Part shown: positions 16,514-16,577 of the stretch, one piece after another
Numbering within the stretch: position 1 is the first letter of the stretch
Layout of the letters: each line of letters begins with the position of its first letter
Origin: Escherichia coli
Lineage (GTDB): Bacteria > Pseudomonadota > Gammaproteobacteria > Enterobacterales > Enterobacteriaceae
Direction: 5' to 3' (one strand)
DNA: 64,000 nucleotides
Assembly (NCBI RefSeq): GCF_013122565.1
Contig: NZ_CP053258.1
Notes under the pieces: generated by a model
Seen by the model: the letters and a program-made list of their open reading frames with translations, nothing else
The model's database searches: none
What the model was told of the DNA's origin: nothing
Translations under genes and position numbers: made by a program

Positions 16514-16577
16514 ACTTTATTTACTCCCAGTGTCTGTCTCGTAAATGGGACGGTGCGTGCCGTCCCATTTTTTGTAT

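What the first reader, a model, noticed from the sequence alone, without database searches (positions are those of the whole stretch)
16541..16577. Strong plus-strand terminator-like hairpin in the ilvE-ilvD intergenic spacer, antisense to the operon
Between the ilvE stop and the ilvD start the sequence gtaaa-tgggacgg-tgcgtg-ccgtccca-ttttttg forms a GC-rich stem followed by T6 when read on the plus strand, a canonical intrinsic terminator in the orientation opposite to ilvGMEDA transcription. On the operon (minus) strand the same stem is followed only by UUUAC, so it should be a poor terminator for ilv mRNA but could stabilise the ilvE 3' end or act as a processing site. It may also stop antisense transcription entering from the ilvD side.
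Basis: seen in the sequence. Interest (0 to 1): 0.25.

Follow-up and report, generated by a model that had tools for sequence, protein, structure and literature searches.

The report
Conserved mRNA hairpin between ilvE and ilvD
The hairpin is real, but comparison with about 85 related bacteria shows that the conserved feature is a stem-loop in the ilv operon's own mRNA, just upstream of a known small-RNA (GcvB) binding site. The backwards-facing terminator look is specific to E. coli and some relatives, so this is an ordinary though unannotated operon-internal RNA element.

Summary
Window 16543-16570 is an 11-12 bp GC-rich hairpin in the 64-nt ilvE-ilvD spacer of an E. coli genome. It is followed by TTTTTTG on the + strand, which is antisense to ilvGMEDA, and by only UUUAC on the operon strand. 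It folds far better than shuffled sequence (z -5 to -6).

The antisense-terminator reading is not what evolution has conserved:
- In 67 distinct Enterobacteriaceae spacers the stem is kept with compensatory changes (9 of 11 pairs).
- Non-Watson-Crick pairs are mostly G·U on the operon strand (21 haplotype-level cases against 4 A·C). This points to selection on the sense RNA.
- The antisense T tract scores as a terminator in only 19 of 67 spacers, and not in Salmonella arizonae, Enterobacter or Kluyvera.
- Six other Enterobacterales genera carry an unrelated GC hairpin at the same place.
- ERIC repeats replace the hairpin in some species.

The hairpin ends 4-5 nt upstream of GACAGACA (-25..-18 of ilvD). 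This is the published GcvB R3 pairing site (Miyakoshi 2021).

Best reading: an intercistronic mRNA stability and processing barrier that uncouples ilv(GM)E from ilvDA. Antisense termination in E. coli is possible but secondary and undemonstrated. One published Term-seq list shows no 3' end here, but it also misses the operon's own terminator. Interest is low to moderate.

The parts
16543..16570 (-). Intercistronic RNA hairpin. Operon-strand RNA reads AAAUGGGACGG-CACGCA-CCGUCCCAUUU, an 8-bp GC core plus 3 A-U pairs. It lies at -57..-30 relative to the ilvD ATG.
   Evidence: dG about -18 to -19 kcal/mol, z -5 to -6; pair probability about 1 in context; 85.5% of cells paired against 36-50% in slid controls, and 9 of 11 pairs have compensatory changes. 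G·U bias on this strand.
16571..16577 (-). A-rich single-stranded tract (AUACAAAAAAU on the mRNA) between the ilvE stop and the hairpin. On the + strand it reads as the TTTTTTG 'terminator' T tract.
   Evidence: unpaired probability 0.86-1.0. A6-A7 in only a subset of genera, and ATAAATAT or ATAAATTT in many others.
16531..16538 (-). GACAGACA, the pairing site for the GcvB sRNA R3 seed (GcvB nt 155-162, UGUCUGUC). It lies at -25..-18 of ilvD, 4-5 nt 3' of the hairpin base.
   Evidence: PMC9299463 section 2.6: compensatory GcvB G156C / ilvD C-19G; my own pairing puts G156 opposite C-19. R3 complementarity has z below -2 in 54 of 67 spacers.
16524..16528 (-). ilvD Shine-Dalgarno sequence, GGGAG (-15..-11).
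   Evidence: GGAGT is invariant in alignment A2.
16578..16580 (-). ilvE stop codon (TAA). It lies 8 nt before the extended stem and 11 nt before the GC core.
16511..16513 (-). ilvD start codon (ATG).

Best explanation
The element is a conserved stem-loop of the ilvGMEDA mRNA itself (window minus strand). It sits just past the footprint of a ribosome terminating at the ilvE stop, and immediately 5' of the single-stranded GcvB-binding site and Shine-Dalgarno sequence of ilvD.

Most likely it is a structural barrier of the 'selective RNA processing and stabilisation' kind. After endonucleolytic cleavage in the flanking A/U-rich single strands, including cleavage provoked by GcvB-Hfq repression of ilvD, the GC stem stops 3'-to-5' exonucleases. 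Alternatively it caps the new 5' end. Either way, the ilv(GM)E and ilvDA parts of the transcript decay independently and can be expressed in different amounts. The hairpin also keeps the ilvD translation-initiation region from pairing with upstream sequence.

In E. coli and some relatives the A-run 5' of the stem makes the complementary strand look like a perfect intrinsic terminator. That may stop stray antisense RNA polymerase, but it is a lineage-specific side property and not the conserved function.

Shown: the hairpin, its conservation with covariation, the strand bias of wobble pairs, its position relative to the published GcvB site, and the patchy antisense T tract.
Inferred: the exonuclease-barrier and decay-uncoupling role.
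For: Conservation of the stem:
- A hairpin is present in about 70 of 79 Enterobacteriaceae spacers, always 25-30 nt before the ilvD ATG and 6-11 nt after the ilvE stop.
- On 67 distinct sequences, 85.5% of cells are paired against 36-50% for slid registers. Nine of 11 pairs have changes on both sides. The covariation score is 0.292 against 0.06-0.15.

Strand of selection:
- Non-Watson-Crick core pairs are G·U on the operon strand in 24 cells (21 haplotype-level cases, at 5 stem positions, in many genera).
- They are A·C in 7 cells (4 haplotype-level cases, essentially one Kosakonia event plus a misaligned Mangrovibacter hairpin). Binomial p is about 0.0009, not corrected for phylogeny.
- The A-U, G·U, G-C series at column 36 is the path expected for an RNA read from the operon strand.

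Structure rather than sequence is kept:
- GC hairpins of unrelated sequence occupy the same spot in Erwinia, Proteus, Morganella, Budvicia, Sodalis and Edwardsiella.
- ERIC repeats, themselves long palindromes, replace the small hairpin in several Citrobacter and Enterobacter species.

Not a terminator in most species: 47 of 67 spacers score as a terminator in neither direction.

Link to GcvB: the GcvB R3 site GACAGACA lies 4-5 nt 3' of the stem, and the model predicts it to be largely unpaired.

Precedent: in iscRSUA, a strong structure in the iscR-iscS spacer is responsible for RyhB-dependent accumulation of the upstream iscR fragment (PMC12533949, citing Desnoyers 2009). The SRPS concept is set out in PMC10667835.

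Within species: the spacer is invariant in 97% of E. coli genomes, while only 378 of 5424 genomes are at least 99% identical over the 301 bp that include the coding flanks.
Against: - No direct RNA evidence. The curated Term-seq 3' ends of Adams et al. 2021 list nothing between 3950406 and 3957809 in MG1655, so there is no stable sense 3' end at the hairpin. That list also lacks the ilvA terminator, so its sensitivity for this operon is low.
- The cleavage-site table of PMC10667835 lists a site in ilvM but none in this spacer.
- For the commonest haplotype the antisense fold is about 1.5 kcal/mol more stable than the sense fold, so energies alone do not favour the sense strand.
- The G·U versus A·C count is not corrected for phylogeny.
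- The hairpin persists in genera that lack the GcvB R3 site (Klebsiella, Raoultella, Atlantibacter, other families), so any GcvB link cannot be its whole purpose.
- Whether it protects the upstream 3' end or the downstream 5' end is undecided.
Confidence: 0.5

Rival explanations
1. Antisense intrinsic terminator. The hairpin plus T6 on the + strand stops RNA polymerase transcribing antisense through ilvD, which protects ilvE, ilvM and ilvG from antisense interference or head-on collisions.
For: - In E. coli the + strand has a textbook terminator: 8-12 bp GC stem, TTTTTTGTATTTATT tail, score about +44.
- The same holds in E. albertii, C. sedlakii, Superficieibacter, Klebsiella, Raoultella, Yokenella and Atlantibacter (19 of 67).
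- Antisense transcription does occur in the operon. Rho-dependent termination regions lie on the antisense strand at MG1655 3956067 (in ilvA) and 3951509 (in ilvG).
Against: - The T tract is absent or weak in 48 of 67 spacers, including Salmonella arizonae (score about -20), Enterobacter, Kluyvera, Lelliottia, Leclercia, Kosakonia, Cedecea and Buttiauxella, and in all six other families sampled.
- Stem substitutions favour G·U on the operon strand. These are C·A mismatches on the antisense strand.
- No + strand promoter-like site lies within ilvD.
- ilvY read-through is already Rho-terminated in ilvA.
- No antisense 3' end is listed at 3953413-3953421, though that is weak evidence.
Confidence: 0.15
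2. Leaky sense-strand terminator or pause site. The hairpin with its short U tract terminates or pauses a fraction of polymerases after ilvE, lowering ilvDA relative to ilvGME. This may depend on how closely the ribosome finishing ilvE follows the polymerase.
For: - The hairpin lies 6-11 nt after the ilvE stop, so a trailing ribosome could prevent its formation.
- Some species have real sense U tracts: Pseudocitrobacter CCCUUUUAUUAG, Phytobacter CUGUUUUGUAG, L071 CUGCUUUUUGAC and Morganella CCUGAUUUUUGC.
Against: - In E. coli the tail is UUUACGAG (T score 2.4, overall score about -10).
- Only 5 of 67 spacers score positive in the sense direction.
- No sense 3' end is listed in the Term-seq tables.
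Confidence: 0.12
3. GcvB/Hfq regulatory module. The stem brings the 5' A-rich tract, a possible Hfq distal-face (ARN)n site, next to the 3' GcvB R3 site. It keeps that site and the Shine-Dalgarno sequence single-stranded. The hairpin would then mainly serve sRNA control of ilvD translation.
For: - ilvD is the most strongly GcvB-repressed gene of the operon, through R3 at C-19.
- The site starts 4-5 nt after the stem.
- The A tract and most of the GcvB site are predicted to be unpaired.
- R3 complementarity is conserved in 54 of 67 spacers.
Against: - The hairpin is retained where the R3 site is lost (Klebsiella, Raoultella, Atlantibacter) and in families whose spacers lack GACAGACA.
- The A-run is not conserved.
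- No Hfq-binding data were examined.
Confidence: 0.15
4. A functionless palindrome, or a relic terminator from a time when ilvE ended a transcription unit.
For: No function has been demonstrated. No Rfam family matches and RefSeq annotates no feature here.
Against: - Compensatory substitutions are seen across dozens of genera.
- The position is conserved with complete sequence turnover across families.
- The sequence is near-invariant within E. coli.
Confidence: 0.04

Closest known systems
iscR-iscS intergenic structure in iscRSUA (RyhB-induced differential degradation; Desnoyers et al. 2009, as summarised in PMC12533949)
   Same: A strong secondary structure sits in the spacer between an upstream cistron and a downstream cistron whose translation-initiation region is bound by an Hfq-dependent sRNA. 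In iscRSUA the structure preserves the upstream fragment while the downstream part is degraded. The layout here matches: stop codon, hairpin, sRNA site, Shine-Dalgarno sequence.
   Different: For ilvE-ilvD no accumulation of an upstream fragment has been shown. This stem is a short 11-bp hairpin and is not REP-like. It is also kept in species without the GcvB R3 site.
Intercistronic stabiliser hairpins / selective RNA processing and stabilisation (e.g. the malE-malF REP; general concept in PMC10667835)
   Same: A stable GC stem-loop without an efficient U tract lies between cistrons of one operon. It is conserved as structure, and in some species it is replaced by another palindromic element, ERIC.
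   Different: It is single-copy and not a REP/BIME repeat (median of one place per genome). No processing site in the spacer appears in the held cleavage table.
Rho-independent (intrinsic) terminators, including bidirectional ones between convergent genes
   Same: A GC-rich stem, a short loop and a T6 run on the + strand. An A-run on one side and a T-run on the other resemble bidirectional terminators.
   Different: It lies inside an operon between co-directional genes. The good U tract is on the strand with no known transcription unit. The U tract is not conserved, and no 3' ends are recorded.
ERIC (IRU) elements embedded in enterobacterial mRNAs
   Same: In relatives, an ERIC occupies exactly this spacer, either beside the hairpin or in its place.
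   Different: The E. coli element is 28 nt, unique in the genome, and has no sequence similarity to ERIC.

Membership tests
Intrinsic terminator on the + strand (antisense to ilv) | GC-rich stem of 5-14 bp with a 3-8 nt loop | tested here: met
   12 pairs, loop 4, dG -19.1 kcal/mol.
Intrinsic terminator on the + strand (antisense to ilv) | U-rich tract immediately 3' of the stem | tested here: met
   tail TTTTTTGTATTTATT, T score 5.05, overall score about +44 in E. coli.
Intrinsic terminator on the + strand (antisense to ilv) | A transcription unit reads into it | tested here: not met
   no sigma-70-like + strand site within ilvD (14663-16513); no annotated + strand gene. Only a mechanical 111-aa antisense ORF exists. 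Weak promoters cannot be excluded.
Intrinsic terminator on the + strand (antisense to ilv) | RNA 3' ends map to the U tract | tested here: inconclusive
   none in the Adams 2021 curated Term-seq lists (three conditions). Those lists also lack the ilvA terminator.
Intrinsic terminator on the + strand (antisense to ilv) | Hairpin plus U tract conserved together in orthologous positions | tested here: not met
   positive score in 19 of 67 spacers; none of six other families; substitutions create C·A mismatches on this strand.
Intrinsic terminator on the - strand (operon sense) | U-rich tract immediately 3' of the stem | tested here: not met
   tail UUUACGAG, T score 2.44, overall score about -10. 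Positive in only 5 of 67 spacers.
Intercistronic mRNA stabiliser / processing-barrier hairpin (SRPS type) | Stable stem-loop on the mRNA strand between two cistrons of one transcript | tested here: met
   dG -18 to -19 kcal/mol, pair probability about 1 in a 364-nt context; position between ilvE and ilvD.
Intercistronic mRNA stabiliser / processing-barrier hairpin (SRPS type) | Structure, rather than sequence, conserved on the mRNA strand | tested here: met
   (covariation). (sense G·U bias). (unrelated hairpins at the same site in other families).
Intercistronic mRNA stabiliser / processing-barrier hairpin (SRPS type) | Accumulating RNA fragment whose 3' (or 5') end abuts the stem, and differential half-lives of the flanking cistrons | tested here: inconclusive
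   No such end appears in the held tables. There is no half-life or Northern data for this junction in the searchable library. A wet-lab test is needed.
REP/BIME or ERIC repeated palindromes | Multi-copy dispersed repeat with a family consensus | tested here: not met
   median of one place per E. coli genome. ERIC primer sequences match only the insertions in other species, not the E. coli hairpin.
GcvB sRNA target site | Base-pairing with a GcvB seed, validated by compensatory mutation | tested here: met
   This applies to the adjacent segment 16531-16538, not to the hairpin itself. Published G156C / C-19G, and my pairing reproduces the register.
Any Rfam family | Covariance-model match at or near the gathering score | tested here: not met
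   best hits in the spacer score 8-14 bits against thresholds of 40-75.

The most novel reading that the evidence does not exclude
The hairpin, the A-rich tract 5' of it and the GcvB R3 site 3' of it together form an 'operon-splitting' module. When GcvB-Hfq binds, RNase E cleaves next to the stem. The stem then preserves ilv(GM)E mRNA while ilvDA is destroyed. This would give amino-acid-responsive, discoordinate control of transaminase versus dehydratase and deaminase within a single operon, a second natural case of the iscRSUA-RyhB mechanism. In E. coli the same element would also act as a terminator for antisense transcription.
Probability: 0.2. Interest if true: 0.5.

Novelty: new member of a known kind. 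Interest (0 to 1): 0.27.

Why it matters
The ilvGMEDA operon is a classic model and a workhorse of valine and isoleucine production strains. If the stem sets the relative stability of the ilvE and ilvDA parts of the transcript, or gates GcvB control of ilvD, it bears on enzyme stoichiometry and on operon engineering, because constructs often delete or keep this spacer without regard to it. More generally, it shows that a 'terminator on the wrong strand' can be the mirror image of a sense-strand mRNA structure. Wobble-pair asymmetry across relatives can tell the two apart without any RNA data.

Tried and rejected
1. Published 3'-end, processing and TSS datasets.
- Only Adams 2021 (complete tables: nothing at the spacer) and PMC10667835 (no spacer site; one file truncated) could be read.
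- Ju 2019, Lalanne 2018 and Thomason 2015 are not held.
- Dar & Sorek 2018, Herzel 2022, Conway 2014 and Grünberger 2022 have no held supplements.
- The SMRT-Cappable-seq supplements do not mention ilvE or ilvD.

2. Classic ilv papers (Huang 1992; Lawther 1987) are not held. I therefore cannot say whether the stem was noted at the time of sequencing.

3. Full-text searches for ilvE/ilvD with terminator, stem-loop or intergenic gave nothing on this hairpin apart from the GcvB paper.

4. Rfam gave no family.

5. Anti-SD switch idea: the 3' arm UCCCA could pair with the UGGGA of the ilvD Shine-Dalgarno sequence when the 5' arm is covered by a ribosome. Rejected as a conserved mechanism, because species with a CUGGAGU Shine-Dalgarno and CCGCCUG arms, and the other families, lack this complementarity.

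6. Comparing mean hairpin energies between strands is uninformative. The antisense loop gains an extra G·U closing pair in the common haplotype.

7. Whole-length GcvB-target duplexfold gave a meaningless maximal pairing. Only the R3-restricted run was used.

8. The + strand ORF 16253-16588 (111 aa, GTG start), which ends at the hairpin, was treated as mechanical and not pursued.

Full report
**Observation.**
The window is an E. coli chromosome segment. A 301-bp query is 100% identical to O145:H28 strains and is present in 5424 of 5426 complete genomes. The ilvGMEDA operon lies on the minus strand. The ilvE stop is at 16578-16580, the ilvD ATG is at 16513, and the spacer of 64 nt is 16514-16577. 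The spacer is identical to K-12 MG1655.

The consensus scan places its best terminator-like site of the 12-21 kb region on the + strand at 16543-16570: 12 pairs, loop 4, tail TTTGTATTTA. Folding gives -19.1 kcal/mol (+ strand) and -18.1 to -19.0 kcal/mol (- strand). The z-scores are -5.1 and -5.9, and none of 200 shuffles folds as well. In 364 nt of context the GC core pairs with probability of about 1 on either strand. Only four perfect hairpins of 10 bp or more exist in the 64 kb, against a naive expectation of 0.09-0.37.

**Terminator anatomy in E. coli.**
With a d'Aubenton-Carafa-type score (approximate, because modern energy parameters were used), the + strand scores about +44 (tail TTTTTTGTATTTATT). 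The operon strand scores about -10 (tail UUUACGAG).

**Comparative evidence.**
One scan of representative bacterial genomes with IlvE returned 80 Enterobacteriaceae loci, and I extracted 79 ilvE-ilvD spacers.
- About 70 of the 79 carry a GC hairpin 25-30 nt before the ilvD ATG and 6-11 nt after the ilvE stop.
- On an alignment of 67 distinct sequences (A2), the 11-pair stem is paired in 85.5% of cells, against 36-50% when the 3' partner is slid by 1-3 columns.
- Nine of 11 pairs show changes on both sides. The covariation score is 0.292 against 0.06-0.15.
- Examples of compensatory variants are GGGACGG/CCGTCCC, GGGGCGG/CCGCCCC, CGGGACGG/CCGTCCCG, GAGACGG/CCGTCTC and GGGATGG/CCATCCC.

**Which strand is selected.**
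A transition in a Watson-Crick pair gives either G·U, which is tolerated, or A·C, which is not. A G·U on one strand is a C·A on the other.
- In the 8-bp core there are 24 G·U cells on the operon strand and 7 A·C cells.
- Counting each distinct hairpin haplotype once gives 21 against 4. The 4 are three Kosakonia-type haplotypes sharing one change, plus a Mangrovibacter hairpin that is really a different stem. Binomial p is about 0.0009, not corrected for phylogeny.
- Salmonella enterica subsp. arizonae carries two sense G·U pairs. Its antisense hairpin drops to -6.1 kcal/mol, against -10.8 on the sense strand, and its antisense terminator score is about -20.

The structure has been maintained for the operon-strand RNA.

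**Is the antisense T tract conserved?**
It scores as a terminator in 19 of 67 distinct spacers: Escherichia, C. sedlakii, Superficieibacter, Klebsiella/Raoultella, Yokenella, Atlantibacter and a few others. The sense strand does so in 5 of 67, and 47 of 67 score in neither direction.

To look further out, I took IlvE relatives of 84-90% identity and fetched their contigs.
- Erwinia, Proteus, Morganella, Budvicia, Sodalis and Edwardsiella each have a GC hairpin of unrelated sequence ending about 20-27 nt before the ilvD ATG.
- None has a canonical antisense T tract.
- Morganella has AUUUUUG on the sense side.
- Orbus has no hairpin.

In several Citrobacter and Enterobacter species an ERIC repeat replaces the small hairpin. 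In Kosakonia an ERIC is inserted just 5' of it, and there the small stem carries an A·C mismatch. All of this points to a stable RNA structure at this place as the conserved requirement, not a terminator facing backwards.

**Context on the mRNA.**
Miyakoshi et al. 2021 (PMC9299463, section 2.6) showed that GcvB represses ilvD more strongly than the other ilv cistrons, through its R3 seed, with the compensatory pair GcvB G156C / ilvD C-19G. Using the MG1655 gcvB sequence, I find that GcvB 155-162 (UGUCUGUC) pairs with ilvD -25..-18 (GACAGACA, window 16531-16538), with G156 opposite C-19.

The site therefore begins 4-5 nt after the hairpin base (-30). R3 complementarity is conserved in 54 of 67 spacers (z below -2). 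It is lost in Klebsiella-, Raoultella- and Atlantibacter-type spacers, which still keep the hairpin, and it is absent from the other families. The A tract and most of the GcvB site are predicted to be single-stranded.

**Mechanism.**
The layout is stop codon, short A/U-rich single strand, GC stem without a U tract, sRNA site, Shine-Dalgarno sequence. This is the layout of intercistronic stabiliser hairpins. Its closest match is the iscR-iscS spacer, where a strong structure is responsible for RyhB-dependent accumulation of the upstream iscR fragment (PMC12533949 citing Desnoyers 2009).

I therefore propose that the stem uncouples the decay of ilv(GM)E and ilvDA. It would do so either by blocking 3' exonucleases after a cut 3' of the stem, or by capping the 5' end of ilvDA after a cut in the A/U tract. 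It would also insulate the ilvD initiation region. This step is inference. The antisense terminator shape in E. coli may still work on stray polymerases, but several points make it a secondary property at best:
- no promoter-like site on the + strand lies inside ilvD;
- ilvY read-through is already Rho-terminated in ilvA;
- the T tract is evolutionarily patchy.

**Direct RNA evidence.**
The complete curated Term-seq tables of Adams et al. 2021 list no 3' end on either strand between MG1655 3950406 and 3957809. However, the same tables do not list the ilvA terminator, so they are insensitive for this operon. A cleavage-site table (PMC10667835) lists a site in ilvM but none in the spacer. Other datasets could not be read.

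**Known or new.**
No Rfam family matches. RefSeq annotates nothing in the spacer. No paper in the searchable library discusses this hairpin. The element is single-copy, so it is not REP, BIME or ERIC. It is best filed as a new, unannotated member of a known kind, the intercistronic mRNA hairpin. Its antisense terminator resemblance is real in E. coli but is not the conserved feature.

**Verdict.**
- Observation: confirmed.
- Interpretation: partly supported.
- Interest: about 0.27.

The most novel reading still open is that the hairpin and GcvB site form an operon-splitting module like iscRSUA-RyhB. I put this at about 0.2 probability, and it would be moderately interesting if true.

Noticed in passing
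L004, L005, L007, L014, L016, L038, L076 (spacer after ilvE, about 3930-4115); L033, L045, L048, L052, L047, L066: ERIC/IRU repeats sit in the ilvE-ilvD spacer of relatives. They match the ERIC1R and ERIC2 primer sequences with 1-4 mismatches. In one orientation the ERIC is inserted between the ilvE stop and the small hairpin (Kosakonia, C. amalonaticus). In the other orientation it replaces the hairpin (Citrobacter werkmanii group, some Enterobacter). Shorter palindromic inserts occur in L027 and L032.
   Followed up: partly
L085:2428-2681: The Symbiopectobacterium ilvE-ilvD spacer is 254 nt. It is bounded by a long inverted repeat (TAGGCTGTGTCCC...GGGACACAGCCTA), which looks like a MITE-type insertion.
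   Followed up: no
window 19453-19742 (-): Rfam RF02744 (Rev39_5p_UTR, 'soft rot Enterobacteriaceae') matches the ilvL leader/attenuator region upstream of ilvG at 157 bits. That family therefore appears to be the ilv leader.
   Followed up: no
window 17787-19433 (-): ilvG is an intact 548-codon ORF in this strain. In K-12 MG1655 it is annotated as a frameshifted pseudogene.
   Followed up: no
window 2371-2398, 10563-10587, 46260-46287: These are the only other perfect hairpins of 10 bp or more (loop 3-8) in the 64 kb. The one at 10563-10587 lies just downstream of ilvC and is probably its terminator. The other two were not examined.
   Followed up: no
A2 columns 40-46 (window 16554-16559): The hairpin loop CACGCA (sense) is identical in about 50 of 67 distinct spacers, although the stem covaries and the flanks drift. 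The first C and last A of the loop are at least 90% conserved. This is unexplained.
   Followed up: no
L071, L074, L077, L079 (about 10-20 nt 5' of the hairpin): A CACAACACCA motif lies immediately upstream of the hairpin in these Cedecea-like spacers. It is CA-rich and resembles GcvB R1-type target sites.
   Followed up: no
P0001: A 403-aa predicted protein is 100% identical to IlvE and also carries an ACT_5 (IlvM-type) domain. It appears to be an ilvM-ilvE fusion call on one Logan contig, probably a frameshift or assembly artefact.
   Followed up: no
MG1655 3951509 (-) = window about 18482 (+); MG1655 3956067 (-) = window about 13924 (+): The Rho-termination table of Adams et al. 2021 lists antisense-strand Rho-dependent regions inside ilvG and ilvA. 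Antisense transcription of the operon therefore exists, and it is handled by Rho at sites away from the hairpin.
   Followed up: partly
E. coli genome collection: One complete E. coli assembly carries a copy of the ilvE-ilvD junction on a plasmid record.
   Followed up: no
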